DNA from: a virus | DNA: 42,810 nucleotides | Virus genome (UHGV): UHGV-0330108 | Direction: 5' to 3' (one strand) | Part shown: piece by piece, positions 6,091-40,082 of the stretch | Layout of the letters: the number at the start of each line of letters is the position of its first letter | Numbering within the stretch: position 1 is the first letter of the stretch | The notes under the pieces: model-generated | Told to the model about the DNA's origin: nothing | What the model saw: the letters and a program-made list of their open reading frames with translations, nothing else | Databases searched by the model: none | Position numbers and translations under genes: made by a program

Positions 6091-6551
6091 TGATGGGCTT
6101 TTTCAAAGTAACTGACGTACCTTCGCGTCGCGTAGTCCAGTACGCCCGCGTGTCTGGCTCTGGCGAGAACGTGGTGTTTATCGAAGACGAAAGTGTACTC
6201 GGCTCACCGGTAGACGATATGCCGTTTGCGGATAAAACCGGTATTGCGTTGCCAGCGGCTGGTATGCTTTACGAGATTCCGTATCTGGCTGACGCTGGCG
6301 ATGTGTATTTCTCGGCGCAACCGCAGGACGCTGAACTGGCAGACGGCGGCGCAACTATCACCGTCGAAGTTAATGCAGGTAAAGCACCGTACGCGCTGAC
6401 CTGGTATAAAGACGGTAAGGAAGTGGTAAACGCCCCGGAAGAGGCTTTATCTCTGACGGTTAATTCAGTCGGCGAATACTTCGTCAAGGTTACCGATGCC
6501 GATGGTGTAGAGGCCGTAAGTAAAGCGGCGAAGGTTACGAAGCCAGAATGA
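6090..6551 (+). CDS. Ig-like domain protein (possible capsid decoration protein)
   Basis: C-terminal segment TVEVNAGKAPYALTWYKDGKEV...GEYFVKVTDADG is Ig-like; start ATGATG overlaps the previous stop. Confidence 0.5.
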   Translation: MMGFFKVTDVPSRRVVQYARVSGSGENVVFIEDESVLGSPVDDMPFADKTGIALPAAGMLYEIPYLADAGDVYFSAQPQDAELADGGATITVEVNAGKAPYALTWYKDGKEVVNAPEEALSLTVNSVGEYFVKVTDADGVEAVSKAAKVTKPE

Positions 6552-6554
6552 TAA

Positions 6555-6585
6555 AAGGCCCCTTACGGGGCCTTAGTTTTATTTG
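6555..6585. terminator. bidirectional rho-independent terminator
   Basis: AAGGCCCC-TTAC-GGGGCCTT flanked by an A-run upstream and AGTTTTATTT downstream, at a convergent gene junction. Confidence 0.55.
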
Positions 6586-6797
6586 AAGAATATCGCGAAT
6601 TTCTTGTAACCCGCTGGCTCGTTGCGCAGACCGTGTTCGTTAGCAAAACGTTGTATATTGTTAAAGTCATTTTCACCCATTCCGTCCGTATCGAACGTAA
6701 AGAAATTACGTTTGTTCCCGATAAGCACACGGCTTGTGATATCAATGCCGTAAAGTTCTTTGATGGCACGTACAACGTTTGCAGTAGCTTTGTTCAT
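6579..6797 (-). CDS. hypothetical protein (72 aa), isolated minus-strand gene
   Basis: ORF track frame 6579-6896; internal ATG at 6797 preceded by TAAGGAATTTGGAA; a TATAAT-containing 23-mer lies ~33 nt upstream. Confidence 0.5.
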   Translation of the reverse strand: MNKATANVVRAIKELYGIDITSRVLIGNKRNFFTFDTDGMGENDFNNIQRFANEHGLRNEPAGYKKFAIFFK

Positions 6798-6829
6798 TTC
6801 CAAATTCCTTATCTCTCGTTTCGATGTAA

Positions 6830-6852
6830 TGAATAGTACCCTATTATATTGG
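6830..6852 (-). promoter_or_regulatory. promoter/operator cassette TGAATAGTACCCTATTATATTGG (minus-strand TATAAT plus palindrome GAATAG-N4-CTATTA)
   Basis: Perfect TATAAT on the minus strand overlapping a 16-bp palindrome; the identical 23-mer recurs at 16043-16065. Confidence 0.45.
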
Positions 6853-6927
6853 TGTCTGCAAACTATTTGTTTACGTATTCCAGTTATTCCACTCAATTGT
6901 AAATGTTGGAATAAACTATTCGAATAG

Positions 6928-12334: not shown

Positions 12335-12747
12335 TGGGCTACTTTGAGGACTTAACAAAAGCGTTTGACGCGCCGCTGGTAGCCTTCGGTACCGCAAACG
12401 GCATCAAGATTGCGCTTGAAAATATCGACGCACCGACGTCAACCGATACGCCGTATCTGGCAAGTTACATGCTACTCGCCGATACGGAACAGGCGGATTT
12501 GTTCTTCACGGAACAACGCTCCGGTGTTTATCAGGTCGACATTAACTACGCATCGGTGAAAGGTAGCGCGCCAATCAATAAAATGGCAGACTTACTTAAC
12601 ACGGCGTTTAAAGCAGGCAAGTCATTTTCGCGTAACGACATCTGCGCCGAGGTTCAATCGGTTAGCCTGGGGCCGCTGATTGTAGAAAACGGATGGGCCA
12701 AACGGCCATTGTCAATTAACTTTATTGCATTCACCAAGAGGCTGTGA
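12331..12747 (+). CDS. putative tail terminator/completion protein
   Basis: 138 aa ORF immediately upstream of the major tail protein gene; positional call. Confidence 0.45.
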   Translation: MMGYFEDLTKAFDAPLVAFGTANGIKIALENIDAPTSTDTPYLASYMLLADTEQADLFFTEQRSGVYQVDINYASVKGSAPINKMADLLNTAFKAGKSFSRNDICAEVQSVSLGPLIVENGWAKRPLSINFIAFTKRL

Positions 12748-13916
12748 ATATGGCTACAACTCCTTTTAAGGGCGCGAATACCGCGCAATTCTATGTGGCG
12801 GAAGTGACCCCGGGCGTAACACCTGCTAACCCGGTCTGGTCGCCGTTGCGTAACACTGGCGGTGTTCCTGCCGTAACCCGCGATGCGCTGACTTCCAACG
12901 AACTGGACGGCAGCCGTGAAACCACATCCATCCGCACTGGTAACAAGCAGGTCAGCGGAGAGTACGCCATTGAGCTTAGCTCCCGTAGCCAGGATGATTT
13001 CCTTGCGGGTGCTATGACTTCTACGTGGCAGGATGGGGTAGAGATTACGGGTGCCGAAATTACGGTCGCCCCAGCAGGTAAAACATTCACCCGCGCTGCC
13101 GGTAGCTTCATTACTGACGGTGTAGAAGTTGGCGACCTGATCGCGTTCACCGACTTAACCGGCGACAACGCAAAACCGTTTATCGTGACCGCGGTCGAGG
13201 CGCTCGTAGTAACAGGCGCAGGTATTCAGCACACGCTGACAGCAGAGACTGTAACCACCGACGCTAAAACTGGCGATAAACTGGAAACTGGTAACGCATG
13301 TAAGACGTTCTCCATCCTGACATGGTTCAAAGGCCAGTGCGGGAACCCTGACGCGTACATGCTGACCAAAGGCGTGGAAATCTCCGGTTTTACTATCGAG
13401 CAGGCCGTAAACGCTATGGTAACCGGCAGCTTCCCGTTCATTGGTCTGAGCCAGGAGATTCTTACCGCTCCGCCGTCCGGCTCTGATTTCTCCCGGGTTA
13501 CGTTCACCGATGAGCCGTTCTCGTCTGTAGATGTGTCTGTGTTCGACGGCTCTGCGCCGTTGCGTTGCGACAGCCTGACCATCACCAACGACAACAGCGC
13601 ATCCGCGCAGTTCGAACTCGGCAACAGTAGCGTCGCGTTCGTGGAACGCGGTCGCGCAGCTAACACCTTCTCCATCTCCGGCAAGCTGTACGACATGGCG
13701 ATGATTCAGAAGTTTATCAACGAACAGCAGGTAGAGATTAACTCTATTCTGGCGGGGGTAAACGGGGCTATGTCTTTCAGCCTGAAACGAGCAGAACTTA
13801 CGGCGGTTACACCAGAGATTGGTGGCCCTGAGTCAATCACTCAGTCTATTGAAGGCCAGGCCACCGGCAACCAGTACCAGTCATCTATCGTAATTCAACG
13901 TATCACCTACGCATAA
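12744..13916 (+). CDS. putative major tail protein
   Basis: 390 aa ORF between connector genes and the chaperone/tape-measure pair; followed by a strong terminator. Confidence 0.65.
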   Translation: MNMATTPFKGANTAQFYVAEVTPGVTPANPVWSPLRNTGGVPAVTRDALTSNELDGSRETTSIRTGNKQVSGEYAIELSSRSQDDFLAGAMTSTWQDGVEITGAEITVAPAGKTFTRAAGSFITDGVEVGDLIAFTDLTGDNAKPFIVTAVEALVVTGAGIQHTLTAETVTTDAKTGDKLETGNACKTFSILTWFKGQCGNPDAYMLTKGVEISGFTIEQAVNAMVTGSFPFIGLSQEILTAPPSGSDFSRVTFTDEPFSSVDVSVFDGSAPLRCDSLTITNDNSASAQFELGNSSVAFVERGRAANTFSISGKLYDMAMIQKFINEQQVEINSILAGVNGAMSFSLKRAELTAVTPEIGGPESITQSIEGQATGNQYQSSIVIQRITYA

Positions 13917-13950
13917 AACTAAGGCCCCAAACGGGGCCTTTTTCTTACTC
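13917..13950. terminator. bidirectional rho-independent terminator cassette
   Basis: AAAACT-AAGGCCCC-AAAC-GGGGCCTT-TTTTCTTACTC; the minus-strand gene's stop codon lies in the T-tract. Near-identical copy at 25239-25277. Confidence 0.65.
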
Positions 13951-14175
13951 ATCAATGTTACTTCTGTACTCCCGTAACTTCTCCAGGCTTTCAATTGCTT
14001 CCGCTAAGTCTGTTCCGGTGTCCTTGTGCCCGCGAAGGCCCATACACAATAATTTCTTCAATGCGTGCTGTAACGCCGGGTCGCGGATGTCGAAAGCGCG
14101 GAGCACATCATAAACGTCTACAGTCATAGTGCTGCCGTGGATGTTTGTCATTGTGCGGTTGTATTTTGAAGTCAT
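13945..14175 (-). CDS. hypothetical protein (76 aa)
   Basis: ORF track; last gene of the minus-strand island. Confidence 0.5.
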   Translation of the reverse strand: MTSKYNRTMTNIHGSTMTVDVYDVLRAFDIRDPALQHALKKLLCMGLRGHKDTGTDLAEAIESLEKLREYRSNIDE

Positions 14176-14188
14176 AAATCACTTTCCC

Positions 14189-14659
14189 CTACTCATGGTT
14201 TTCATGGAAACCGTATTTACTCTCCGCGGCTTTACGCGCGGCAACCGCTAGACCAAAATCGTCGTAAAGCCCTAAATGTACTTGTTTGTAGTTAACTTTT
14301 ATAAACGCGCGCCACTTACCCGCGGCTTTGTGGAAACTTACACCTGTAGCCCCGGATTTATTTATCTTTCGCATAGTTTTATTTTTACTGTTCCCTGTAT
14401 TGTCGGTGGCGCGTAGATTTTCTATTCTATTGTCTAGCCTGTTATGGTTTATGTGGTCTATTTGAGTTTTCCTGTCTAAGTTGCATTTATTATAAAGACA
14501 CCATGCTATGCGGTGGACATACACCGTTTTACCACCCATACCGCAGCACAGATAGCCTCTTACACCAACCGTACCAACCTCAGCGCCAGTAGATATCCTG
14601 GTCACCTGCCCCGTCTCAGGGCAGTATTTAAATTGTTTTGAAACATCAATATATCTCAT
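14189..14659 (-). CDS. HNH homing endonuclease with AP2-like DNA-binding domain
   Basis: HNH core GYLCCGMGGKTVYVHRIAW...IDHINHNRLDNRIENL; C-terminal GVSFHKAAGKWRAFIKVNYKQVHLGLYDDFGLAVAARKAA resembles an AP2 domain. Confidence 0.8.
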   Translation of the reverse strand: MRYIDVSKQFKYCPETGQVTRISTGAEVGTVGVRGYLCCGMGGKTVYVHRIAWCLYNKCNLDRKTQIDHINHNRLDNRIENLRATDNTGNSKNKTMRKINKSGATGVSFHKAAGKWRAFIKVNYKQVHLGLYDDFGLAVAARKAAESKYGFHENHE

Positions 14660-15786
14660 CTTAGCATCTCCGGTGAGATTGAAAGCCTACCTACTTCCCC
14701 GAACTCTGAACTATAGGTTATGACGTTAGCGGACCTCTTAGACATCCACCCGCCGCGAGAAGCATATGCATCTTTCGCCGCGAGAGTGCGATGCTGCTCC
14801 ACTACCATATTCCTACTTTCTACAATCTTTTGGTGGTGGAGATGCCCGACATGCGCATAACTGTACTCGCTTTCGCCAAATGCTTTTCTGAACTTAGCGA
14901 TCATAATGGGTTCTACCACCTCAAACCGGCATTTATGTCCGTGTGTAAAGAACAGCGTCGTTTTGCCGTGTTGCACCATCTTATAAACATCCGGCGACGT
15001 ATCGACGAACACACGAGGCTCATTGTCGTATAGCGTACTGAACATCTCAGCCAACCAAATCATGCCCGATTCGTCGTGGTTCCCTTGCACGATAAGCAAG
15101 CGAACATTTTTATGCTTAACGAGGGCCATATCGACAACACGGCGGACCATACGAATCATGTAGCGCACAAGTTTCTGATAGCGCGTGTCCGCATCTAGAA
15201 CATGACCACTTGCAGGTGTAACGGCATCCAGACTATCGAAGTGTGCAAGGTCCCCCAGCAGATTAATAACTCCTGTTCCAGCGTCAGGCGCTTTCTGAAA
15301 CGCCGCGTCGAACCATCGAGAGAACAGGTCTTCCGCAATCTTCATATCCCAGTCGTCGCCGCTCTCGTCGGCCCAGGCCAGCATACCGAGATGAAAATCA
15401 GATACCGTGTAAAGATTGAGTAGCTTGTCGTCACGTTTGGCGCGAATGGCTTTAACAGGCGCAACAGGGGTAATCTCCGACTTCATACCTTCAATTACGG
15501 CTTTCATCAACTCGACCTGACGTTCGGCATCGGTGTCAGTCTTAACCCATTGCAGTTTAGTATTGCCGAACTCGTCAACAAGTGACGACGTCCCTTTAAT
15601 CTTGTAGCCGTCCGGTACAAGGTGACTAACGTCGCGCCCGTGGCCTACGCCTTTCTTAGCCAGCTTCGCTTTACGGATGCGAATTACGCGGTCTGAGATG
15701 CCGTATTTACGGGCGATGTCGATATTCTTCATACCGGCGTTCAATTCTTCCTGCAACTGCTCGTCGGTTATTTTCTTCCGGGCCAT
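14656..15786 (-). CDS. calcineurin-like metallophosphoesterase with N-terminal HTH domain
   Basis: Phosphoesterase motifs in order: SDFHLG, LLGDLAHFD, QGNHDE, FFTHGH, GHLHH; N-terminal NIDIARKYGISDRVIRIRKAK is HTH-like. Confidence 0.7.
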   Translation of the reverse strand: MARKKITDEQLQEELNAGMKNIDIARKYGISDRVIRIRKAKLAKKGVGHGRDVSHLVPDGYKIKGTSSLVDEFGNTKLQWVKTDTDAERQVELMKAVIEGMKSEITPVAPVKAIRAKRDDKLLNLYTVSDFHLGMLAWADESGDDWDMKIAEDLFSRWFDAAFQKAPDAGTGVINLLGDLAHFDSLDAVTPASGHVLDADTRYQKLVRYMIRMVRRVVDMALVKHKNVRLLIVQGNHDESGMIWLAEMFSTLYDNEPRVFVDTSPDVYKMVQHGKTTLFFTHGHKCRFEVVEPIMIAKFRKAFGESEYSYAHVGHLHHQKIVESRNMVVEQHRTLAAKDAYASRGGWMSKRSANVITYSSEFGEVGRLSISPEMLR

Positions 15787-15823
15787 GCTTATTCCTCGTG
15801 CTTAGGATTTGTCCTATACTAGC

Positions 15824-16015
15824 TTACTTCTCGTTAACATTCGAGTTGCAAGCCCAGATTAAAATAAATACCCACGGCAGCAGAATCCAACCAAGAAACA
15901 GATTGGCCATGAATATCGCCAACTTCGCTTTATGGTTGCGGAAATACGCAACCAGGAAAGGTGCGAAATAGGCGAGCAGTGCAAACAGAATTAAGGAAAC
16001 TGGTAAACTTGACAT
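15824..16015 (-). CDS. small membrane protein (63 aa from MSSLP...)
   Basis: ORF track frame 15824-16030; second ATG at 16015 has GGAGGG 8 nt upstream; two predicted TM helices. Confidence 0.5.
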   Translation of the reverse strand: MSSLPVSLILFALLAYFAPFLVAYFRNHKAKLAIFMANLFLGWILLPWVFILIWACNSNVNEK

Positions 16016-16042
16016 TTTAAATCCCTCCATTGTTGGTGTGGG

Positions 16043-16065
16043 TGAATAGTACCCTATTATATTGG
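16043..16065 (-). promoter_or_regulatory. promoter/operator cassette TGAATAGTACCCTATTATATTGG, identical to 6830-6852
   Basis: Exact 23-mer repeat with minus-strand TATAAT and the palindrome, directly upstream of the island's first gene. Confidence 0.45.
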
Positions 16066-16181
16066 GGCGCGCAAGTAGTGTGCTAGAATAGGTTTGCGCC
16101 TAGTGTCGCACACGAAAAGCGGGTGGTTCCCGTCTGGCGCATCAACCTTAACCCGTAACCTCTTAACCAAAGGATTAAAGA

Positions 16182-16598
16182 ATGAAACTTTCTGATTTTT
16201 ATTTCGAAGAGAAAGCACTGGTGGGCAAGAAGATGCCGATTCTGCTACCAAATGGTGAAGACTCAGGGGAGTGGCTTAACGTTGTAAGCCCTGATGCGGA
16301 TGCCGCCGTTAAAGCCGGGCGTGCTTTCATTATCGCGTACCGCCGCGGGCTGGCGCGTTTCGAAGAACTGGAAAAAGCCGCCAAAGAATCCGGCGACTAT
16401 ACTGAATATAACCTGGCGGTCAACGAACTGGCGGAAGACCTCAACCGGCAACTTGCCGCAGAAGTAGTAAACGGCTGGAGCTTTGATGAGCCTTTCTCTA
16501 AAGAAGCATTTAGCAAATTGCTGGACCAGTTCAAGGCATTAGGTACACAGGTGGCGGCGTTCCATAACGCCGAGCGCAAAGCATTACAGGAAAAGTAG
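16182..16598 (+). CDS. tail assembly chaperone
   Basis: 138 aa acidic protein immediately upstream of the tape measure gene; ends in GGAAAAG followed by TAG. Confidence 0.6.
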   Translation: MKLSDFYFEEKALVGKKMPILLPNGEDSGEWLNVVSPDADAAVKAGRAFIIAYRRGLARFEELEKAAKESGDYTEYNLAVNELAEDLNRQLAAEVVNGWSFDEPFSKEAFSKLLDQFKALGTQVAAFHNAERKALQEK

Positions 16599-16963
16599 AC
16601 GCGCTGTACAGGTTCGCCACCTATGAGTTCGTTGATAAGCATAAAATCAGAGAGTTTGATTCTATAGCTGACGGACACGAGCAGGCGCTTATCGCGATGG
16701 GTGTAATCGATAAGAAAAAACGTGCAGCGCGACGGGGTGGGCCAGAATGCCCGCCCCTTTTTATATCCACCTTTGAGACGTACTGTGACATTAAGTTTAC
16801 GCGACACGTGGGCGAGGACGCTGTAGTATTGTTCGCAAGAGAATCCGTTACGTGGCAAGACCTGAAAGCCTATCTCGATGTTACGCAAAAACAGCTTAGC
16901 CTGTTCGAGATAGACATTATCATGGGCTTAGAAGCAATCTTTGAAGGTAGAAATCATGGCTGA
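16568..16963 (+). CDS. putative -1 frameshift extension of the tail assembly chaperone
   Basis: The -1 frame is open from 16568 to 16963 and overlaps the end of the chaperone; candidate slippery site G GAA AAG at 16589-16595 next to the 0-frame stop. Confidence 0.4.
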   Translation, partial: RRAQSITGKVDALYRFATYEFVDKHKIREFDSIADGHEQALIAMGVIDKKKRAARRGGPECPPLFISTFETYCDIKFTRHVGEDAVVLFARESVTWQDLKAYLDVTQKQLSLFEIDIIMGLEAIFEGRNHG

Positions 16964-19235
16964 TACCGCTAGCTTGATAGTACGAGTATCATCGACCGGC
17001 GTCGATAAAACTACATCACAACTGAACGGCCTTACCAAGGCGGCGGGGGCCGCTGCCGCTGCCGTTGTCAGTCTGGAAACCGCTAAGCAGGTTTTCAGCG
17101 CGCTGGTGGACTCTCAGCGCAACTTCGATAAGCTAAATTCCGGCCTTATCACGATGACCGGAAGCGCAGAGAATGCGGCTAAGGCTTTCAGCGTCCTGCA
17201 ACAGTTCGCAAAAGAAACCCCGTATGGACTCAATCAGGCGGTAGAGGGTTTCACTAAACTTGTAGCCCTCGGCCTTAACCCCAGCAAAGAAGCGTTAATC
17301 TCCTACGGCAACACCGCCGCGGCTATGGGCAAAGACCTTAATCAGATGATTGAGGCCGTAGCGGACGCCAGTACCTTTGAGTTTGAGCGACTGAAAGAGT
17401 TTGGCATCAAGTCGTCACAGCAGGCAGATACAGTTTCGTTCACTTTCCGCGGTGTCACCACCACGGTTAAGAAGAACTCAGAAGAGATTCAGAAATACCT
17501 GCTAAATATCGGTAACACTGATTTCGCAGGAGCGATGGAAACGCGCTCGAAAACCTTAGATGGTCAGTTATCGAGCCTGGCGGACTCCTTCGACAGCCTT
17601 GTTCTTGCGGTAGCGCAGTCTGGTTTTGGCGATGCCGTAGGCGAGCAAGCTGCGACAGCGGAAGATGCTATCACGGCGCTTACCGACGCCATTGCGTCTA
17701 ACGAGATAGCGGCCACGCTCCAGGACTGGGTGACACTGTTCAATGAGTCGTTCAAGTTTATTTCTGATGCCCTGAATGACCTGGCATTCGATACAGAGGA
17801 CAAATCCGTTGATATGTCCGACTCGCTGGGGACTATCCCTGATGCCATCCGTGAGTGGTTGCCCGACATCCAGCAGACATTCCACGAGGTTATCGCATGG
17901 TTTCAGCGCATTGACGATTACGCCGTAGCGCTTGGCCAGACCCTTGCCGACGTGTTTGACCCGAGCAAAACGGCGGCGCTCACATTTAAAAAACTGACCG
18001 CAGAGGCTGACGCCGCATACGACGCCAGCATAAAACGCGCAGAGGCCGAATCACAGGCCATTACCAACAGGTCTAAGCAGCACAAGAAAGAAATTGAGGA
18101 ACAGCGCAAGCAGTACAACGAGCGCAAGAAGCAAGAAATTGACCTAGCCAGCCTTGTTAATGGGAAGGGGGGAACTGGTGGGGCTGGTGGAACAGGAAAC
18201 ACCAACGACAAAGACGCGAAAGCCGCCGCTAAGAAAGCGGAGCAATTGCGTAAACAGGCGCAAGATTATCTCGATACTCTGGCCCGTCAGAACAACGACG
18301 AGTTAAAGGCCATTGATGCGCAGGAACAGCAGAAACTGGCTAAGGCAAAAGAGTTCTACAGCCAGGGCGCGTTGTCTCTGAAAGAATACGAGCAAGCAAA
18401 AACGGCTATTGTCCTCGAAGCCGGACAAAACCGACAAGATGAACTGGATAAACGCCAGAAAGAAGCCCAGGAAAAGCAGCAGAAAGGTGAAGACTTCATG
18501 GCCCAGATTATGGGCCAGAACGCCGCCGAGCTTGAGCTTCTCGACATCCAGGAACAGCAGAAACTGGCGGTAGCGGATAAGTACCGTGAGCAGGGTCTGA
18601 TTAACGAGGAACAGTATCAAGCGGCGCTTAACGCTATCAATGAGCAGTATGCCACGAAACGTGCGGATGCTTTAGGTAGCTCTTTTGGTGATATGGCGGC
18701 TAATGCTAAAACAGCATTCGGCGAGGCGTCCACCGCGTATAAAGCGTTCGCTATTGCACAGGCAACTATCGCCACGTACACATCGGCTATTGAGGCATAT
18801 AAGTCAACGGCTGCTATCCCTGTTGTCGGCCCATTCCTGGCTCCTGTAGCTGCCGCCACTGCCGTCGCCGCGGGGCTGGCTAATATCGCCAAAATCCGCT
18901 CGGCGCGTGAACAGGGTGGTCAGTTATCAGCGGGCCAGATGTCTACAATAGCGGAGCGTGGCAAGCCAGAAGTTATCATGCCCGCGGGGGCGTCACGCGT
19001 GCGCACCGCGCAGCAGATGAAAGAGATTATGGGGCAAAACGGTGGCCAGTCCGGCGGTGATAACGTCACCATAGTCAACAACACCACCGGACGTGTGGAT
19101 TCTGCCGTAACAGAACGTGACGACGAAGGGCGTTTGCGTATTATAATCAGCGAAACAGTAGCGTCGCAGTTACAGGATAACAACTCACCGATTTCTAAAG
19201 CTCGCCGCGCTACCCGCGGTCAGCCGGGGTACTGA
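16956..19235 (+). CDS. tape measure protein
   Basis: ORF track frame 16941-19235; ~760 aa, Ala/Gln/Glu/Lys-rich predicted coiled coil; located after the chaperone. Confidence 0.85.
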   Translation: MADTASLIVRVSSTGVDKTTSQLNGLTKAAGAAAAAVVSLETAKQVFSALVDSQRNFDKLNSGLITMTGSAENAAKAFSVLQQFAKETPYGLNQAVEGFTKLVALGLNPSKEALISYGNTAAAMGKDLNQMIEAVADASTFEFERLKEFGIKSSQQADTVSFTFRGVTTTVKKNSEEIQKYLLNIGNTDFAGAMETRSKTLDGQLSSLADSFDSLVLAVAQSGFGDAVGEQAATAEDAITALTDAIASNEIAATLQDWVTLFNESFKFISDALNDLAFDTEDKSVDMSDSLGTIPDAIREWLPDIQQTFHEVIAWFQRIDDYAVALGQTLADVFDPSKTAALTFKKLTAEADAAYDASIKRAEAESQAITNRSKQHKKEIEEQRKQYNERKKQEIDLASLVNGKGGTGGAGGTGNTNDKDAKAAAKKAEQLRKQAQDYLDTLARQNNDELKAIDAQEQQKLAKAKEFYSQGALSLKEYEQAKTAIVLEAGQNRQDELDKRQKEAQEKQQKGEDFMAQIMGQNAAELELLDIQEQQKLAVADKYREQGLINEEQYQAALNAINEQYATKRADALGSSFGDMAANAKTAFGEASTAYKAFAIAQATIATYTSAIEAYKSTAAIPVVGPFLAPVAAATAVAAGLANIAKIRSAREQGGQLSAGQMSTIAERGKPEVIMPAGASRVRTAQQMKEIMGQNGGQSGGDNVTIVNNTTGRVDSAVTERDDEGRLRIIISETVASQLQDNNSPISKARRATRGQPGY

Positions 19236-25238: not shown

Positions 25239-25277
25239 AAAAAAACTAAGGCCCCAAACGGGGCCTTTTCTTTACTC
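25239..25277. terminator. bidirectional rho-independent terminator cassette
   Basis: A9-CT-AAGGCCCC-AAAC-GGGGCCTT-TTCTTTACTC; core identical to 13917-13950; contains the stop codon of a minus-strand small gene. Confidence 0.65.
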
Positions 25278-25409
25278 TTCTGATAACTTCTCAAGTACAA
25301 ACGCCAGTTGCGCATTAGCGGCGTCTCTTTGCTGGCGTAGTCGTAGAACCTCCTCCTCGAGTTCCTTGATACGTTTTTGCAATGCTGGAATCGGGGCTAT
25401 GATGTTCAT
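25272..25409 (-). CDS. small coiled-coil protein (45 aa, MNIIAPIPALQKRIKELEEEVLRLRQQ...)
   Basis: Not in the ORF track; ATG overlaps the helicase stop (ATGA); GAGGTAAG upstream. Confidence 0.4.
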   Translation of the reverse strand: MNIIAPIPALQKRIKELEEEVLRLRQQRDAANAQLAFVLEKLSEE

Positions 25410-27341: not shown

Positions 27342-27653
27342 TCAATTCCTTATATTGTTGGTGCAGGGATAACTATAATAGTTCGCTATTAGGTCGTCAA
27401 CCTCTTCTTTTGTTCCTACTACAAAAACATTTGCGTCACGTTTACGAAGCCGTTTGTGTTCCCGCAACTGATGGGCCTCCGGTTCCGTGTTTTCGTCTTT
27501 CTTCACCTCGACGAACCATATAACCCCTCCAGGAAGGGCTACCAGCAGGTCAGGCGCTCCGTTTCTACCCTCATAAGACAGCTTACGAACGAGGCCACCA
27601 ATGGCCTCGAATTGCTCTTTTGCGTATTTCTGTATTTTTCCTTCCGGGGTCAT
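27342..27653 (-). CDS. VRR-NUC domain nuclease
   Basis: ORF track frame 27342-27668; ATG at 27653; motif GAPDLLVALPGGVIWFVEVKKDE fits the VRR-NUC/PD-(D/E)XK signature. Confidence 0.7.
   Translation of the reverse strand: MTPEGKIQKYAKEQFEAIGGLVRKLSYEGRNGAPDLLVALPGGVIWFVEVKKDENTEPEAHQLREHKRLRKRDANVFVVGTKEEVDDLIANYYSYPCTNNIRN
27372..27400 (-). promoter_or_regulatory. sigma70-like promoter (minus: TTGACG-N17-TATAGT) with palindrome TAATAGTTCGCTATTA in the spacer
   Basis: Read on the reverse complement; lies inside the 3' end of the VRR-NUC gene, upstream of 27045-27338. Confidence 0.55.
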
Positions 27654-30896: not shown

Positions 30897-30949
30897 CGTG
30901 ATTTCTCGCTTTTCAGTTTACTCCGGGAACTGCCCGGCCAGTTATTAGA

Positions 30950-30978
30950 ACTATAATAGTTAACTATTCAGGTGTCAA
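30950..30978 (-). promoter_or_regulatory. sigma70-like promoter (minus: TTGACA-N17-TATAGT) with perfect palindrome GAATAGTTAACTATTA in the spacer
   Basis: Consensus -35, near-consensus -10, 17-bp spacer; ~45 nt upstream of the ATG at 30896. Confidence 0.6.
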
Positions 30979-31211
30979 CCCTTCCAGCCAGTTATTTTCT
31001 CGACTAGCCAGATATACTTGTTTGGCCAGTTCAAATTGCGTACCCACTCAACTTCTTTGGTGTACACCAACTCCTCTAGTTCTATTTTCCTGCACTTAAA
31101 GGCGGTATACACGAAAAACGGAAGAAGCATTATAACTAGCGGCAGTATCAGAGCGTGATAAGTTAAAAACGCCACAAAACCGCCAATTACTCTGAACATT
31201 TTACGAATCAT
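30975..31211 (-). CDS. small membrane protein (78 aa from MIRKMF...)
   Basis: ORF track frame 30975-31241; ATG at 31211 overlaps the exonuclease stop, with GAGGAGGA upstream; hydrophobic core. Confidence 0.45.
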   Translation of the reverse strand: MIRKMFRVIGGFVAFLTYHALILPLVIMLLPFFVYTAFKCRKIELEELVYTKEVEWVRNLNWPNKYIWLVEKITGWKG

Positions 31212-33453: not shown

Positions 33454-33485
33454 TTTGTTTCTCTCCTCTCGTTTGGTATGGGCTA

Positions 33486-33515
33486 ACTATAATAGCGAAC
33501 TATTCATGTTGTCAA
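33486..33515 (-). promoter_or_regulatory. sigma70-like promoter (minus: TTGACA-N18-TATAGT) with palindrome GAATAGTTCGCTATTA
   Basis: Same architecture as 27372-27400 and 30950-30978; divergent from the XRE regulator gene. Confidence 0.55.
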
Positions 33516-36603: not shown

Positions 36604-36983
36604 ACATAATTGCACCTATTGACATTATGAAAATCTTCGTTTAAGGTGCTTCTATATCTTAGTTACTTTGATTCCTGTTCACCTTGTAAAACCGCTTAAA
36701 ACGCAGCTGCGCGCAGCGCAAGCAAAGTGTTAAGCGCAAGTTTACTGAACATGAGAATTATCATAACTTTCCTCCCTAAGTATCTCCGGTTGCCCTGGGC
36801 AAGCTCTATTCCCATCGGCAGCATATCTCTTAAGTATCTGATTTTCTTAATGTGCCGTAGATTCACAACCGTAAAAATGTAACGATTATTGGGCAGGCTT
36901 AAGGCCTGCCCTTTAGTTACCAAGTAATAAGAATAAAGGCACAACCCTACCTGAAGAATCACAACGGCAACGTAACTATTCTC

Positions 36984-37012
36984 TTGCACATCCCAACATA
37001 ATAGGATACTAT
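36984..37012 (+). promoter_or_regulatory. putative promoter (TTGCAC-N17-TACTAT) with palindrome TAATAGGATACTATTC over the -10
   Basis: Same hexamers, spacing and operator placement as 38498-38526; ~35 nt upstream of the 37046 gene; coordinates approximate. Confidence 0.45.
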
Positions 37013-37045
37013 TCACTTATCGAAACAAGACAGAGGAGTGGGGGT

Positions 37046-37231
37046 ATGTTTAAGAAGGGTCAGTTGGTGAAAACGAAAGATTTCGGTTATTACGGTGTTA
37101 TAGAACAAATTTCAAGTAAGGTTAACGGGATGTGCTACATCCGTACACCTAACCAGCGTTTCGGTAAGTGGTGCTTCGGGGACGAGATAAAACTCATCGG
37201 CAACAATTTTAAATTCAAAGGGGCGAAGTGA
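37046..37231 (+). CDS. hypothetical protein (61 aa)
   Basis: ORF track; GAGGAGTGGGGG RBS. Confidence 0.5.
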   Translation: MFKKGQLVKTKDFGYYGVIEQISSKVNGMCYIRTPNQRFGKWCFGDEIKLIGNNFKFKGAK

Positions 37232-37985: not shown

Positions 37986-37988
37986 TTT

Positions 37989-38192
37989 ATGGGTGAGTGG
38001 GTTAAGTGTAGTGAGCGGATGCCGGAGCCGGGTCAACCAGTTTTGGTCGTCAGTAGTATGGGCGGGGTGGTCAAGAAACATGTGTACGATTGGGATGGGA
38101 TGACTTGGTGCGATTTCTACGGGGAACACGCGGAATGCGGGCGGGAAGTGTTTTCTCACTGGATGCCATTACCGGAGCCGCCAGAAGCGTGA
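37989..38192 (+). CDS. DUF551-like protein, paralog 1
   Basis: Shares WVKCSERMPE...SHWMPLPEPPEA framework with 38676-38873; pattern resembles DUF551. Confidence 0.55.
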   Translation: MGEWVKCSERMPEPGQPVLVVSSMGGVVKKHVYDWDGMTWCDFYGEHAECGREVFSHWMPLPEPPEA

Positions 38193-38226
38193 TGTTCAAT
38201 AGTTTAAGATTTTACTGAGTGACTTA

Positions 38227-38256
38227 CGCTGCTACACAGCAGCGTATCATTTTTCT
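38227..38256 (+). terminator. putative rho-independent terminator
   Basis: CGCTGC-TACACA-GCAGCG followed by a T-rich tract. Confidence 0.4.
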
Positions 38257-38316
38257 CATTTTTGTTCTATTTCACCAAACGCAACAATCGAAGCGACTAT
38301 TGCAGGAGATGCAACA

Positions 38317-38490
38317 ATGATTACTAAAGAACAGGCTGAGCGACTAATCACGTTAATCGACACGATGATTGATGTAAAAATCGATTTAGCAACGGCAACA
38401 GAGGAATCCGCTACCTGGTCGCTTGAAGAAAGAGAAGCAGAAGCGGAACGGGAGTTACTGGCATTCATCGACTCCATAACACACCAATAA
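38317..38490 (+). CDS. hypothetical small acidic protein (57 aa)
   Basis: Not in the ORF track; ATG at 38317 with AGGAG 8 nt upstream; the track's minus ORF 38256-38477 is its antisense shadow. Confidence 0.4.
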   Translation: MITKEQAERLITLIDTMIDVKIDLATATEESATWSLEEREAEAERELLAFIDSITHQ

Positions 38491-38497
38491 AATTTAC

Positions 38498-38526
38498 TTG
38501 CACACTGATATAGAATAGGCTACTAT
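38498..38526 (+). promoter_or_regulatory. putative promoter (TTGCAC-N17-TACTAT) with palindrome GAATAGGCTACTATTC over the -10
   Basis: Same architecture as 36984-37012; ~30 nt upstream of GGGAGGAGAG and the ATG at 38558. Confidence 0.5.
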
Positions 38527-38557
38527 TCATTTACACAAATGGGAGGAGAGACAGAAG

Positions 38558-38692
38558 ATGACTAACTACGGTAGTCAGACTTTAGGCGAACTTGACGATG
38601 CATACGAAACGTCTAGGTGCACGTCTGTATGCGACGGTGATACACGCGAAATAGTAATGGGGGTAGAGGGTGAATATGAGCAAGTGGATTAA
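38558..38692 (+). CDS. hypothetical small protein (44 aa)
   Basis: Not in the ORF track; strong RBS GGGAGGAGAG; 3' end overlaps the next gene. Confidence 0.35.
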   Translation: MTNYGSQTLGELDDAYETSRCTSVCDGDTREIVMGVEGEYEQVD

Positions 38693-38873
38693 GTGTAGTG
38701 AGAAGATGCCGGAAGGTTTTACGGATGTACTTGTTACCGACGGCTCCTATGTGGAAATTATGACGCTACTTGGTGACGGTATCTGGCTTGTGTTGCTGGA
38801 GGAGTGGTCTACCTGCGTTTCTGTTGACAACATAACTCACTGGATGCCATTACCAGAGCCACCGGAAGAGTGA
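38676..38873 (+). CDS. DUF551-like protein, paralog 2
   Basis: ORF track frame 38670-38873; ATG at 38676 with GAGGGTG upstream; same framework as paralog 1. Confidence 0.55.
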   Translation: MSKWIKCSEKMPEGFTDVLVTDGSYVEIMTLLGDGIWLVLLEEWSTCVSVDNITHWMPLPEPPEE

Positions 38874-38960
38874 TGTTATGGTGCGGGTAATTATTGCGGG
38901 TGAGAAGATATACCGCACGCAAACGGTAAGTTCGAGTTAATAGATGTAGGAGAGCAGATT

Positions 38961-39458: not shown

Positions 39459-39658
39459 CCAGCATCCTTTTTATCTGGGTATTGTCAGCGGGCCAGATGC
39501 AACTGGCGGCAACAGAAACGTTTTACTCGATGGAGGCGTGCCAGTCAGCGGCACGCGCCGCAGAGAACGCGCACTTCCTGTTTCAGGGCGACAAGCCAAG
39601 CGATTCAGAGGTACGCGCTATCTGCTCACCTAAGCGACTCGGTAAACAGGAGAAGTGA
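39455..39658 (+). CDS. small protein with signal-peptide-like N-terminus (67 aa)
   Basis: ORF track frame 39431-39658; ATG at 39455 overlaps the upstream stop; hydrophobic N-terminus MTSILFIWVLSAGQMQLAA. Confidence 0.5.
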   Translation: MTSILFIWVLSAGQMQLAATETFYSMEACQSAARAAENAHFLFQGDKPSDSEVRAICSPKRLGKQEK

Positions 39659-39663
39659 TTATG
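39620..39663 (+). repeat. 44-bp gene-junction repeat, copy 1 (ATCTGCTCACCTAAGCGACTCGGTAAACAGGAGAAGTGATTATG)
   Basis: 41/44 identical to 40039-40082; spans C-terminal codons, stop, RBS and start. Confidence 0.7.
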
Positions 39664-39963
39664 AGCACCGAAGCGATGAAGAAAAAGGTTTTGAACGCTT
39701 TGCAAGAAGCTGTGAACTATGGTGCTATCAAAACGTTCACAGAAAGGCACGTCGGTGAAGTGACAATTCACGGATTTAATAATAACAAAAACGGAATTGC
39801 AGCAATCATGCTTTTAAAGAATAGTGGTGATACATTTATCATTTACGTTGGCGGATATGAGCTTATCGTTGATGATGTGTTCATCACCTGCGCCGATGGA
39901 CTTAATCCCATGTTAGCGTTTGAGCGTCGCGGAATACGTGTTGCAACATTTGGAGGGAAGTGA
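39661..39963 (+). CDS. hypothetical protein (100 aa), AT-rich
   Basis: ORF track frame 39655-39963; ATG at 39661 preceded by AGGAG inside the junction repeat. Confidence 0.5.
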   Translation: MSTEAMKKKVLNALQEAVNYGAIKTFTERHVGEVTIHGFNNNKNGIAAIMLLKNSGDTFIIYVGGYELIVDDVFITCADGLNPMLAFERRGIRVATFGGK

Positions 39964-40038
39964 ATATTATGACATCCAACCTTAAGGCCCGTTTGTTACC
40001 CATAAAGCCTCACGTGCTGTATAAGATGGACCAGCTCT

Positions 40039-40082
40039 ATCTGCTCACCCAAGCGACTTGGTAAACAGGAGAAATGATTATG
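40039..40082 (+). repeat. 44-bp gene-junction repeat, copy 2
   Basis: Three mismatches to copy 1, all at third codon positions of the frame encoding ICSPKRLGKQEK. Confidence 0.7.

What the first reader, a model, noticed from the sequence alone, without database searches (positions are those of the whole stretch)
13945..16065. Minus-strand accessory island interrupting the tail module
Four genes on the opposite strand sit between the major tail protein gene and the chaperone/tape-measure pair: a two-TM membrane protein, an HTH-metallophosphoesterase fusion, an HNH-AP2 homing endonuclease and a 76-aa protein. The island is bounded by the 23-mer promoter on one side and a bidirectional terminator on the other. 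The layout fits a mobile or moron cassette; an anti-defence or host-takeover role is possible but speculative.
Basis: partly seen in the sequence, partly recalled or inferred. Interest (0 to 1): 0.7.

Follow-up and report, generated by a model that had tools for sequence, protein, structure and literature searches.

The report
Antisense accessory operon with homing endonuclease
Four opposite-strand genes in the tail region of this E. coli phage form a small operon with its own start and stop signals; the operon is old and shared by two phage genera, only one gene in it (a homing endonuclease) is demonstrably mobile, and the whole is a well-populated but functionally untested kind of phage accessory locus.

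Summary
The window is a Kagunavirus (Guernseyvirinae) genome, about 93% identical to phage Ro145clw. Between the tail-tube gene and the tail chaperone genes lie four minus-strand genes: a 63/68-aa two-TM Imm_superinfect protein, a 376-aa HTH-metallophosphoesterase (MPE), a 156-aa HNH(-AP2) endonuclease and a 76-aa protein (p76). A hairpin terminator that works in both directions bounds one end. A repeated 23-mer with a perfect TATAAT bounds the other.

The island is not one mobile cassette.
- Imm-MPE-p76 sits at this position in all 38 Kagunavirus comparison loci and 3 Jerseyvirus loci examined.
- It is absent from other Guernseyvirinae such as Klebsiella phage VLCpiS11a, so it is accessory at subfamily level.
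- Around a constant MPE there are three swap slots. In one, p76 alternates with a dNMP-kinase-like plus HAD-phosphatase pair.
- The HNH gene is the truly mobile part. It is inserted precisely at the MPE/p76 junction and occurs in only 39 phage records. It is 96% identical across genera whose flanking genes are saturated at synonymous sites, and it drags a roughly 320-nt co-conversion tract.

The MPE is catalytically intact and Mre11/DP1-like. I infer a DNA nuclease resembling T5 A1 in architecture; this is unproven. Ordinary in kind, moderately interesting in detail.

The parts
13921..13940 (.). Bidirectional intrinsic terminator (AAGGCCCC-AAAC-GGGGCCTT) shared by the tail-tube gene (+) and the antisense operon (-)
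   Evidence: Called on both strands. Folds at -15.5 and -19.0 kcal/mol, z = -5.3 and -4.2. Three copies in the window: 6549, 13915 and 25242.
13945..14175 (-). p76: 76-aa conserved small phage protein of unknown function (beta-hairpin plus three helices)
   Evidence: Best PHROG match is phrog_2452. Found in 774 phage records. No Pfam or NCBIfam hit. dN/dS 0.03-0.04. AF2 pLDDT 88 with no PDB fold match. Not similar to the K1G ATP-binding protein.
14189..14659 (-). Free-standing HNH(-AP2) homing endonuclease gene, inserted precisely between the MPE stop codon and the p76 start codon
   Evidence: HNH_3 is above its cutoff; AP2 is sub-threshold. Best PHROG match is phrog_99. Clean indel against Bas74 and PVP-SE2. 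At least 95% aa identity in only 39 records spanning two genera, always next to the MPE gene; the next best hit is 69%. G+C 0.433 against 0.507 for the genome.
14660..14980 (-). Co-conversion tract: the 3' end of the MPE gene that travels with the HNH gene. The likely target-site region is around 14680-14740.
   Evidence: Jerseyvirus S100 (HNH+) and PVP-SE2 (HNH-) are 100% identical on both sides of this interval (window coordinates about 15520-14981 and 14200-14021) but only 58-87% identical within it. Here S100 is 92-97% identical to the window. Over the last 107 codons, pN is 0 between the window and S100, but pS is 0.82-0.90 against HNH- alleles.
14656..15786 (-). HTH-metallophosphoesterase (376 aa): N-terminal three-helix HTH, a beta-hairpin/helix linker, and a C-terminal MPE catalytic core
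   Evidence: phrog_704, E = 2e-165. Invariant D130xH132, G178D179, N236H237, H282, G314/H317, with H315 nearly invariant. AF2 pLDDT 92.6. Foldseek top hits are Mre11, Rv0805 and PolD DP1. Homologues in 2060 phage records. Present in all Kagunavirus and Jerseyvirus loci examined.
15824..16015 (-). Two-TM Imm_superinfect-family membrane protein (63 aa from the second ATG; 68 aa if started at 16030)
   Evidence: PF14373 at 47.6 bits. Best PHROG match is phrog_1039. Two hydrophobic spans. In some Kagunavirus loci this slot instead holds a 108-aa secreted protein or a 145-aa protein.
16043..16074 (-). Promoter-like element: the 23-mer plus its TTGC extension. On the minus strand it reads TTGCGCGCCCCAATATAATAGGGTACTATTCA, with the -10 TATAAT at 16061-16056.
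   Evidence: Two exact copies and one near copy in the window, 0 expected. All three point at the first gene of a transcription unit 26-31 nt downstream. Conserved at this site in 21 of the fetched Kagunavirus loci and upstream at a second site in 14, 8 of which hold both (29 loci in all). No -35 and not called by the consensus scan.

Best explanation
This is a long-resident antisense accessory operon, moron-like in layout, at the tail-tube/tail-chaperone junction of Kagunavirus and Jerseyvirus phages.

Its order is: a repeated -10-type promoter element, then a two-TM superinfection-immunity-family protein, then an HTH-metallophosphoesterase, then an invasive HNH(-AP2) homing endonuclease gene, then a small conserved protein (p76), and finally a hairpin terminator shared with the tail-tube gene.

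Shown:
- the gene order and the domains;
- the terminator;
- the repeat;
- presence or absence of the cassette across relatives;
- the slot structure around a constant MPE;
- recent horizontal spread of the HNH gene together with about 320 nt of the MPE 3' end.

Inferred:
1. The 23-mer is a promoter of one class that also heads a run of small genes at 37046, so the operon is probably expressed on its own schedule, likely early.
2. The MPE is a Mn/Mg-dependent DNA nuclease guided by its HTH. It would act in host-DNA degradation or DNA-end processing, in the manner of T5 A1, which also pairs an N-terminal DNA-binding domain with a C-terminal MPE.
3. The first gene excludes superinfecting phages.
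4. The HNH enzyme cuts HNH-less alleles near the MPE 3' end and is copied in by repair.
For: Anatomy.

Synteny:
- All 38 comparison loci with a tube protein at least 89% identical carry the MPE between the tube and chaperone genes.
- Downstream of the MPE, 21 loci carry p76 and 17 carry a dNMP-kinase-like protein plus a HAD phosphatase. The two cargo types are mutually exclusive genome-wide.
- Jerseyvirus has the same cassette.
- The cassette is absent from VLCpiS11a and from more distant relatives.

HNH mobility:
- precise junction insertion;
- 39 records at 95% identity or more across two genera, then a gap down to 69%;
- an identity gradient and co-conversion tract;
- dS of 0.13 for the HNH gene against saturated flanks.

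MPE:
- intact motifs;
- a confident model;
- Mre11 and DP1 as the nearest solved folds;
- the HTH.

T5 A1 comparison:
- A1 is described as an N-terminal DNA-binding domain plus a C-terminal nuclease (10.1101/2022.08.27.505566).
- It is described as a putative metallophosphatase that resembles double-strand-break-repair and proofreading nucleases and is necessary and sufficient for host DNA degradation (10.64898/2026.04.02.716235).
- Core-to-core hhalign aligns motifs III-V and a C-terminal ITY strand.

Promoter class: three copies, all oriented toward a first gene.
Against: - There is no -35 hexamer, and the scan tool did not call the site as a promoter.
- In PVP-SE2 the annotated promoter in the corresponding spacer points the other way, toward the chaperone gene.
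- Profile-profile comparison with the T5 A1 family is not significant: probability 26% for full length and 44% for the cores. The A1 link is therefore architectural only.
- Foldseek also ranks a cyclic-nucleotide phosphodiesterase (Rv0805) near the top.
- In the one published Kagunavirus time course, the Imm homologue peaks in the authors' 'late' class, together with the DNA polymerase and methylases (PMC12645636). That scheme is coarse.
- No experiment on any of the four proteins was found.
Confidence: 0.7

Rival explanations
1. The whole four-gene island is a single, recently acquired mobile or moron cassette that moves as a unit.
For: It has its own promoter-like element and terminator. Island G+C is 0.475 against 0.521 for the upstream structural block. 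It is absent from some Guernseyvirinae.
Against: The MPE is fixed at this site in every Kagunavirus and Jerseyvirus locus examined. MPE G+C equals that of the genome. Synonymous sites in the MPE and p76 are saturated between genera, whereas the HNH gene is nearly identical, so the parts have different histories. Cargo swaps slot by slot.
Confidence: 0.08
2. The MPE is an anti-defence phosphodiesterase that destroys cyclic-nucleotide immune signals (CBASS, Pycsar, Thoeris or type III CRISPR), and the operon is a counter-defence locus.
For: Rv0805, a cyclic-nucleotide phosphodiesterase, is among the top fold matches (E = 6e-8). The operon layout suggests early, independent expression.
Against: An N-terminal HTH points to a DNA substrate. 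The best fold matches are the nucleases Mre11 and DP1. PADLOC gave no hit. BASEL Kagunavirus isolates that carry this gene show no unusual robustness to the tested defences (PMC11990801). In many loci the MPE is co-transcribed with nucleotide- or nucleic-acid-processing enzymes.
Confidence: 0.1
3. The MPE is an end-healing enzyme of a nucleic-acid repair pathway. In K1G-type phages it would work with a split PNKP-like kinase and HAD 3'-phosphatase, and it would counter host nucleases that cut tRNA or phage DNA.
For: Seventeen of the 38 Kagunavirus comparison loci place a P-loop kinase-like protein (phrog_139) and a PNKP-type HAD phosphatase (PF25109, E = 6.7e-20) directly downstream of the MPE. 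From general knowledge, bacterial Pnkp uses an MPE-fold phosphatase.
Against: The window and 20 other loci lack both partners anywhere examined, yet they keep the MPE. No ligase was seen in the cassette. The P-loop protein matches a dNMP-kinase family rather than a polynucleotide-kinase family.
Confidence: 0.17
4. The operon is not accessory: the MPE is a core replication or recombination factor that merely happens to be encoded in the tail region.
For: 100% conservation in two genera. Homologues occur in 2060 phage records across many siphovirus lineages, usually full length. Purifying selection is strong.
Against: VLCpiS11a, a Guernseyvirinae phage with the same replication module, has no homologue. 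The replication genes (polymerase, helicases, a separate exonuclease) lie elsewhere, on the other arm of the genome.
Confidence: 0.15

Closest known systems
Phage 'morons' (independent transcription units inserted between conserved late genes, as defined for lambdoid phages)
   Same: It lies between two genes that are adjacent, or nearly so, in relatives. It has its own promoter-like element and terminator, is oriented against the surrounding operon, has lower G+C in parts, and is present in some relatives and absent in others.
   Different: The phage is virulent, so no lysogenic-conversion logic applies. The unit has four genes and is composite. Its central gene is fixed in two genera and matches the genome in composition, so the locus is an old, slot-structured accessory operon rather than a recent single-gene insertion.
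Free-standing HNH homing endonucleases of phages (for example the T4 and T5 HNH/mob types and the HNH-AP2 architecture)
   Same: An HNH_3 domain with a C-terminal AP2-like region, insertion in an intergenic junction, sporadic distribution, much higher identity than the flanking genes, and a one-sided co-conversion tract in the neighbouring gene.
   Different: Cleavage activity and target site are untested. The AP2 match is below the Pfam threshold. The element crosses between the Escherichia and Salmonella phage genera at the same site.
Bacteriophage T5 A1 (pre-early host-DNA-degradation protein) and its A2-005-A1 operon
   Same: An N-terminal DNA-binding domain plus a C-terminal metallophosphatase-fold nuclease, with Mre11 and PolD-DP1 as the structural neighbours. 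A small two-TM protein is encoded just upstream. Motifs III-V and a C-terminal ITY strand align in the core-to-core comparison.
   Different: The protein is 376 aa against 556 aa. Profile-profile probability is only 26-44%, and the PHROG families differ (704 against 1745). No activity data exist. The two-TM proteins belong to different families (phrog_1039 against phrog_4820). The gene is not located in a first-step-transfer region.
Mre11/SbcD nucleases
   Same: The best solved-structure match (4nzv, E = 5e-9) and the same five metal-binding motifs.
   Different: TM-score is only 0.41-0.45. No Rad50/SbcC-like partner is annotated in the collinear K1G genome. An HTH N-terminus is present, and no equivalent of the Mre11 capping domain was identified.
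T4 Imm (Imm_superinfect, PF14373)
   Same: The Pfam match is above the gathering threshold, and it is a small two-TM inner-membrane-type protein encoded by a virulent phage.
   Different: It is 63 aa against 83 aa in T4. Exclusion activity is untested, and the slot is interchangeable with unrelated secreted or membrane proteins in sister phages.

Membership tests
Moron / accessory transcription unit | Own terminator | tested here: met
   The hairpin at 13921-13940 is called on both strands and is stable relative to shuffles.
Moron / accessory transcription unit | Own promoter | tested here: inconclusive
   The repeated element has a perfect TATAAT, and all three copies are oriented toward a first gene. 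There is no -35 and the scan did not call it. No transcript data exist.
Moron / accessory transcription unit | Present or absent between genes that are adjacent in related phages | tested here: met
   The gap is 94-482 bp in L034-37, L045, L051-53 and L063. VLCpiS11a lacks the genes genome-wide.
Moron / accessory transcription unit | Composition distinct from the surrounding genome | tested here: inconclusive
   The HNH gene (0.433) and Imm (0.427) deviate, but the MPE (0.502) matches the genome (0.507).
Free-standing HNH homing endonuclease | HNH nuclease domain | tested here: met
   PF13392 at 38.7 bits against a cutoff of 24.8. phrog_99, E = 7e-55.
Free-standing HNH homing endonuclease | Sporadic distribution and precise insertion relative to HNH-less alleles | tested here: met
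   39 records at 95% identity or more, against about 290-330 Guernseyvirinae records that carry the MPE or p76. Clean indel at the stop/start junction.
Free-standing HNH homing endonuclease | Evidence of horizontal spread with co-conversion of flanking DNA | tested here: met
   Identity gradient and a 320-nt tract. HNH dS is 0.13 against saturated flanks.
Free-standing HNH homing endonuclease | Site-specific cleavage of the endonuclease-less allele | not testable with these tools
   Needs an in vitro cleavage assay or mixed-infection crosses.
AP2 DNA-binding domain | Match to PF00847 above the gathering score | tested here: not met
   18.4 bits against a cutoff of 33.3, E = 0.0027, residues 105-146. 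Plausible, but below threshold.
Calcineurin-like metallophosphoesterase superfamily | Five metal-binding motifs (DxH, GD, GNH[D/E], H, GHxH) and the MPE fold | tested here: met
   The motifs are invariant or nearly invariant in 60 diverse homologues. The AF2 model matches MPE structures at probability 1.00. The Pfam domain scores themselves are just below their cutoffs.
Mre11/SbcD | Rad50/SbcC ATPase partner | tested here: not met
   No such gene is annotated in the collinear K1G genome or in the cassette.
Mre11/SbcD | Sequence-level family membership | tested here: not met
   The profile search against PDB sequences gives only E of about 1 for Mre11/SbcD. TM-score is 0.41-0.45.
T5 A1 family | N-terminal DNA-binding domain plus C-terminal MPE nuclease | tested here: met
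   The model shows an HTH at residues 8-44 and an MPE core at about residues 119-370. The A1 architecture is as described in 10.1101/2022.08.27.505566.
T5 A1 family | Detectable sequence or profile homology to A1 | tested here: inconclusive
   hhalign probability is 26% for full length and 44% for the cores, with 217 columns aligned. The PHROG families differ.
T5 A1 family | Degrades host DNA | not testable with these tools
   Needs ectopic expression with a DNA-content readout, or a nuclease assay.
Imm_superinfect (PF14373) | Pfam match above the gathering score; small two-TM protein | tested here: met
   47.6 bits against a cutoff of 27.9. Two hydrophobic spans.
Imm_superinfect (PF14373) | Blocks superinfection | not testable with these tools
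   Needs plating of related phages on cells that express the protein.

The most novel reading that the evidence does not exclude
The HTH-metallophosphoesterase would be a compact functional counterpart, and possibly a distant homologue, of T5 A1. It would be a host-chromosome-degrading nuclease expressed from an early -10-type promoter class, conserved in more than 2000 small siphoviruses (Guernseyvirinae, Drexlerviridae and others). Together with the upstream two-TM protein it would form a minimal host-takeover and exclusion module. The alternative downstream cargo (a dNMP-kinase-like protein plus a HAD phosphatase, or p76) would tune what happens to the released nucleotides or DNA ends.
Probability: 0.2. 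Interest if true: 0.6.

Novelty: new member of a known kind. Interest (0 to 1): 0.35.

Why it matters
Three things follow from this locus.

First, it gives a clean natural example of a homing endonuclease moving between phage genera that infect different hosts. The co-conversion tract is sharply delimited, which predicts where the enzyme cuts. This is useful for understanding mosaicism, and as a caution when Kagunavirus or Jerseyvirus phages are mixed in therapeutic cocktails.

Second, it shows that the tube/chaperone junction of Guernseyvirinae is a structured accessory site. A constant nuclease-like gene is surrounded by three exchangeable slots. That makes the site a natural place to look for exclusion and host-interaction genes, and a safe landing site for engineering these small phages.

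Third, the constant gene belongs to a very large, uncharacterised phage family. If it proves to act like T5 A1, host-DNA degradation by a metallophosphatase nuclease would be far more widespread than the Demerecviridae.

Tried and rejected
1. p76 as a truncated remnant of a longer ATPase. The idea came from p76 matching only the C-terminal part of long PHROG profiles. I rejected it for four reasons:
- BLASTP finds no similarity to the K1G ATP-binding protein.
- Homologues are stand-alone proteins of 61-127 aa.
- dN/dS is 0.03-0.04.
- K1G lacks p76 entirely.

2. Sequence searches of the MPE against PDB sequences, both phmmer and a profile, gave nothing significant.

4. p76 fold search: no match with E below 1.

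5. T5 A1 homology by hhalign was weak or inconclusive:
- single sequence;
- family profile;
- cores only.

6. PADLOC gave no defence-family hit apart from a generic homing-endonuclease model.

7. NCBIfam was uninformative.

8. Literature:
- The BASEL and Jerseyvirus papers mention imm and homing endonucleases only in passing.
- The K1B4 transcriptome uses too coarse a time scheme to date the operon.
- Searches for a T1 host-DNA-degradation gene found nothing usable.

9. The 37-aa ORF annotated in Bas74 inside the divergent spacer (window 16060-16170) is conserved only as far as the spacer itself is. I treat it as probably not a gene.
Full report
**What the window is.**
Megablast of 12700-17000 finds 215 phage records. 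The best is about 93% identical over the full length: Escherichia phages vB_EcoS-Ro145clw and Ro145c2YLVW. These are Kagunavirus, subfamily Guernseyvirinae. The ORF map shows three blocks: a plus-strand structural block from 1 to about 25.2 kb, a minus-strand replication block from 25.4 to 38.2 kb, and a plus-strand block to the end. The finding lies inside the structural block.

**Checking the observation.**
Four minus-strand ORFs occupy 13945-16030. In order of transcription they are as follows.
- **Imm, 15824-16015/16030.**
  - It matches Imm_superinfect PF14373 at 47.6 bits against a cutoff of 27.9, and phrog_1039.
  - It has two hydrophobic spans.
  - The second ATG, behind GGAGGG, gives the 63-aa product annotated in K1G.
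- **HTH-MPE, 14656-15786, 376 aa.**
  - It matches phrog_704 'DNA repair exonuclease' at E = 2e-165. The Metallophos Pfam hits fall just under their cutoffs.
- **HNH endonuclease, 14189-14659, 156 aa.**
  - HNH_3 is above its cutoff; the AP2-like match is sub-threshold.
  - Its ATG overlaps the MPE stop codon (ATGA).
- **p76, 13945-14175, 76 aa.**
  - It has no Pfam or NCBIfam family.

The flanks are the tail tube gene (Phage_tube_2) on one side, and the chaperone pair and tape measure gene on the other. The hairpin at 13921-13940 is scored as a terminator on both strands and folds far better than shuffled sequence.

The '23-mer' is real. There are exact copies at 6830 and 16043 and a third copy with two mismatches at 36993 on the other strand, with none expected by chance.

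Read on the strand of the downstream gene, all three copies have the form TTGCnnnnnCCAAyATAATAGGrTACTATTCA. An RBS and the ATG of the first gene of a transcription unit follow 26-31 nt later. The -10 is consensus in two copies. There is no -35, and the scan tool does not call the site. 'Promoter' is therefore an inference from repetition, orientation and position.

**Is the island accessory?**
I anchored on the tail-tube protein, to avoid selecting for the island, and fetched 60 IMG/VR loci. I then located all reference proteins in them by tblastn.
- **Kagunavirus.** Every locus with a tube protein at least 89% identical and an intact chaperone gene carries the MPE between tube and chaperone. 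That is 34 IMG/VR loci plus four GenBank phages.
- **Jerseyvirus.** Three Salmonella phages (PVP-SE2, S100, SeF1) have the same Imm-MPE-p76 order at the same place, plus a Rha/Ant-type gene.
- **More distant relatives.** Here the gap is small and holds none of these genes.
  - It is 344-482 bp in the Klebsiella VLCpiS11a-like group (tube protein 78-80% identical).
  - It is 474 bp in Serratia phage Eta (L045).
  - It is 94-95 bp in L051 and L052.
- **VLCpiS11a.** The complete genome is classified in Guernseyvirinae. It has no MPE, p76 or Imm homologue anywhere. It has a single 84-aa one-TM gene antisense between the tube and chaperone genes.

The locus is therefore accessory at subfamily level but fixed in two genera.

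**Internal structure.**
The MPE is the constant element. Around it are three variable slots.
- **Promoter-proximal slot.**
  - It usually holds the Imm_superinfect gene.
  - In nine loci it instead holds a 108-aa protein with a signal peptide, and in one locus a 145-aa protein.
- **Slot downstream of the MPE.**
  - It holds either p76 (21 loci) or a two-gene set (17 loci, K1G type).
  - The two-gene set is a P-loop protein matching phrog_139 'dNMP kinase' and a PNKP-type HAD phosphatase, PF25109, E = 6.7e-20.
  - The two cargo types are mutually exclusive genome-wide: K1G has no p76, and the window has neither K1G gene.
- **Terminal slot next to the terminator.**
  - It may hold a 52-58-aa ORF, a second HNH gene (162 aa, as in Ro145clw), a Rha/Ant gene or other genes.
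- **MPE/p76 junction.**
  - Three distinct HNH lineages occupy it in different phages: the window type, a 166-aa type in L006, and a second 156-aa type in L016, L024 and L064.

**The HNH gene is the mobile part.**
- **Precise insertion.**
  - Aligned with the HNH-less phages Bas74 and PVP-SE2, the gene is a clean insertion.
  - It runs from the MPE stop codon to 13 nt before the p76 ATG, and it recreates the ATGA stop/start overlap.
- **Sporadic, cross-genus distribution.**
  - At 95% aa identity or more it occurs in 39 records of both Escherichia Kagunavirus and Salmonella Jerseyvirus, always next to the MPE gene.
  - The next best hit is 69%, and everything else is below 60%.
- **Identity gradient.** Per-segment nucleotide identity of the window to Jerseyvirus S100 (HNH+) runs as follows.

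| Segment | Identity to S100 |
|---|---|
| Imm | 66% |
| MPE 5' third | 69% |
| MPE middle third | 83% |
| MPE 3' third | 91% |
| MPE last 60 nt | 100% |
| HNH gene | 96% |
| p76 | 79% |

- **Delimited tract.**
  - S100 and the HNH-less Jerseyvirus PVP-SE2 are 100% identical on both sides of one interval, over window coordinates about 15520-14981 upstream and 14200-14021 downstream.
  - They drop to 82-93% further upstream, at 15760-15521.
  - Within window coordinates about 14980-14660 they are only 58-87% identical. There S100 matches the window at 92-97%.
- **Substitution rates**.
  - HNH dS between the window and S100 is 0.13, whereas dS for p76 and the MPE between genera is saturated (2 or more).
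  - In the last 107 MPE codons, pN is 0 against S100, but pS is 0.82-0.90 against HNH-less alleles.

This is the expected footprint of homing with one-sided co-conversion. The mobile unit is about 14176-14980, and the likely target lies where the alleles differ most (14680-14740). HNH dN/dS is 0.12, so the gene still appears to be functional. Cleavage itself is untested.

**The MPE.**
- **Breadth.**
  - A library search finds 4672 representatives at E of 1e-3 or better.
  - Homologues occur in 2060 phage records, mostly full length. They include Drexlerviridae, Klebsiella, Vibrio and Campylobacter phages.
- **Catalytic motifs.**
  - In 60 homologues that are 32-50% identical to the window protein, D130xH132, G178D179, N236H237, H282 and G314/H317 are invariant. 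H315 is conserved in at least 90%.
- **Model (pLDDT 92.6).**
  - It shows a three-helix N-terminal bundle (residues 8-44), a beta-hairpin and helix (61-104), and the MPE sandwich.
- **Fold matches.**
  - Foldseek against the PDB ranks Thermotoga Mre11 first (E = 5e-9).
  - Next come the phosphodiesterase Rv0805 and the PolD DP1 proofreading exonuclease. TM-scores are only about 0.4.
  - BFVD returns many uncharacterised phage MPEs.
- **N-terminus.**
  - It gives weak GerE/LuxR/FixJ-type HTH matches.

From the combination of an HTH with a nuclease-like MPE, I infer a DNA nuclease.

The closest functional analogue I could document is T5 A1. [quoted passage not shown] It is described as a putative metallophosphatase resembling double-strand-break-repair and polymerase-proofreading nucleases. 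It is necessary and sufficient for host DNA degradation (10.64898/2026.04.02.716235).

In T5, A1 is preceded by a two-TM protein and by the DNA-binding protein A2. That parallels the order here, Imm followed by HTH-MPE.

Homology is not established.
- hhalign gives 26% probability for the full-length profiles.
- For the catalytic cores it gives 44%, E = 2.4e-4. Motifs III-V and a C-terminal ITY strand align, but motifs I-II are out of register.
- The PHROG families differ.

I therefore claim 'may work like A1', not 'is an A1'.

**p76.**
- It is a real gene.
  - dN/dS is 0.03-0.04.
  - Homologues occur in 774 phage records, and they are stand-alone proteins of 61-127 aa.
- The conserved core is KY.R...VDVYDVL.AF....PA.QHALKKLLC.GLRGHKD..DL.EA.
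- The model (pLDDT 88) is a beta-hairpin plus three helices and has no PDB neighbour.
- In Aeromonas phage AVP3 a p76-like domain is fused to a zinc-ribbon-like region and a BRCT domain. This hints at DNA metabolism.
- Because K1G-type phages keep the MPE without p76, p76 is not an obligatory partner or antidote of the MPE.
- Its function remains unknown.

**Composition.**
G+C values fit an old resident core with younger or exchanged neighbours.

| Segment | G+C |
|---|---|
| HNH | 0.433 |
| Imm | 0.427 |
| p76 | 0.481 |
| MPE | 0.502 |
| Whole genome | 0.507 |
| Tube gene | 0.549 |

**Timing.**
The only Kagunavirus time course groups the Imm homologue with the DNA polymerase and methylases rather than with the neighbouring tail genes (PMC12645636). 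That is compatible with separate regulation. The sampling runs over 120 minutes of a culture and cannot date the operon. The same 23-mer element also heads the run of small plus-strand ORFs starting at 37046. This suggests one promoter class, possibly early.

**Verdict.**
All the parts belong to known kinds, and the arrangement is already present, though little discussed, in hundreds of GenBank genomes. The points worth keeping are the sharply defined cross-genus homing event, the slot architecture, and the testable idea that the conserved HTH-MPE is an A1-like nuclease.

Noticed in passing
window 6549-6861: A second antisense mini-cassette is built from the same parts. It has the 23-mer element (6830-6852), a 72-aa gene (6797..6579, phrog_7673 'internal head protein', E = 4e-27) and an inverted copy of the same terminator (6549-6587). 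It lies between the head-decoration gene and the spanin gene. K1G has only a 344-bp gap at this position.
   Followed up: partly
window 36983-37231: A third copy of the promoter-like element (2 mismatches, CATAAT) lies on the plus strand. It sits 31 nt upstream of a 61-aa ORF (37046..37231) that opens a run of small plus-strand ORFs. Copies 1 and 3 also share the leader sequence ATCGAAAC(G/A)AGA.
   Followed up: partly
window 25242-25280: A third copy of the AAGGCCCC-AAAC-GGGGCCTT terminator (92% identical over 39 nt) lies at the convergent junction between the structural block and the replication block.
   Followed up: no
window 27366-27402, 30944-30980, 33480-33504: A family of 25-32-nt repeats centred on the palindrome AACTATAATAGTT lies in the minus-strand replication block. 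They are possible promoters or operators of another class.
   Followed up: no
window 16060-16170 (-): A 37-aa ORF inside the divergent spacer is annotated as a gene in Bas74 (Bas74_0024). It is conserved only as far as the spacer itself is, so it is probably not a gene.
   Followed up: partly
window 16182-16963: The tail chaperone genes occur as two ORFs (16182-16598 and 16697-16963). K1G annotates the equivalents as a joined, frameshifted product. The frameshift site was not examined.
   Followed up: no
window 37988-38877 and 39615-40082: Pairs of direct repeats 85-92% identical lie about 685 and 419 bp apart. They suggest tandemly duplicated small genes in the right arm.
   Followed up: no
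L067 2977-4194 (Aeromonas phage AVP3): A 405-aa protein carries a p76-like N-terminal domain followed by weak, sub-threshold zinc-ribbon-like matches and a C-terminal BRCT domain. It is annotated as a 'DNA ligase domain protein'.
   Followed up: partly
L010, L011, L016, L020, L027-L031 (for example L010 6853-7179): In nine Kagunavirus loci the Imm slot instead holds a 108-aa protein with an N-terminal signal peptide (MRKLVLALGFMSFATFG...). L024 has a 145-aa protein in that slot.
   Followed up: no
L072 28912-29166 (Klebsiella phage VLCpiS11a): This Guernseyvirinae phage lacks the island but still has one antisense 84-aa single-TM gene at the tube/chaperone junction. The site appears to be a conserved docking point for small membrane-protein genes.
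   Followed up: partly
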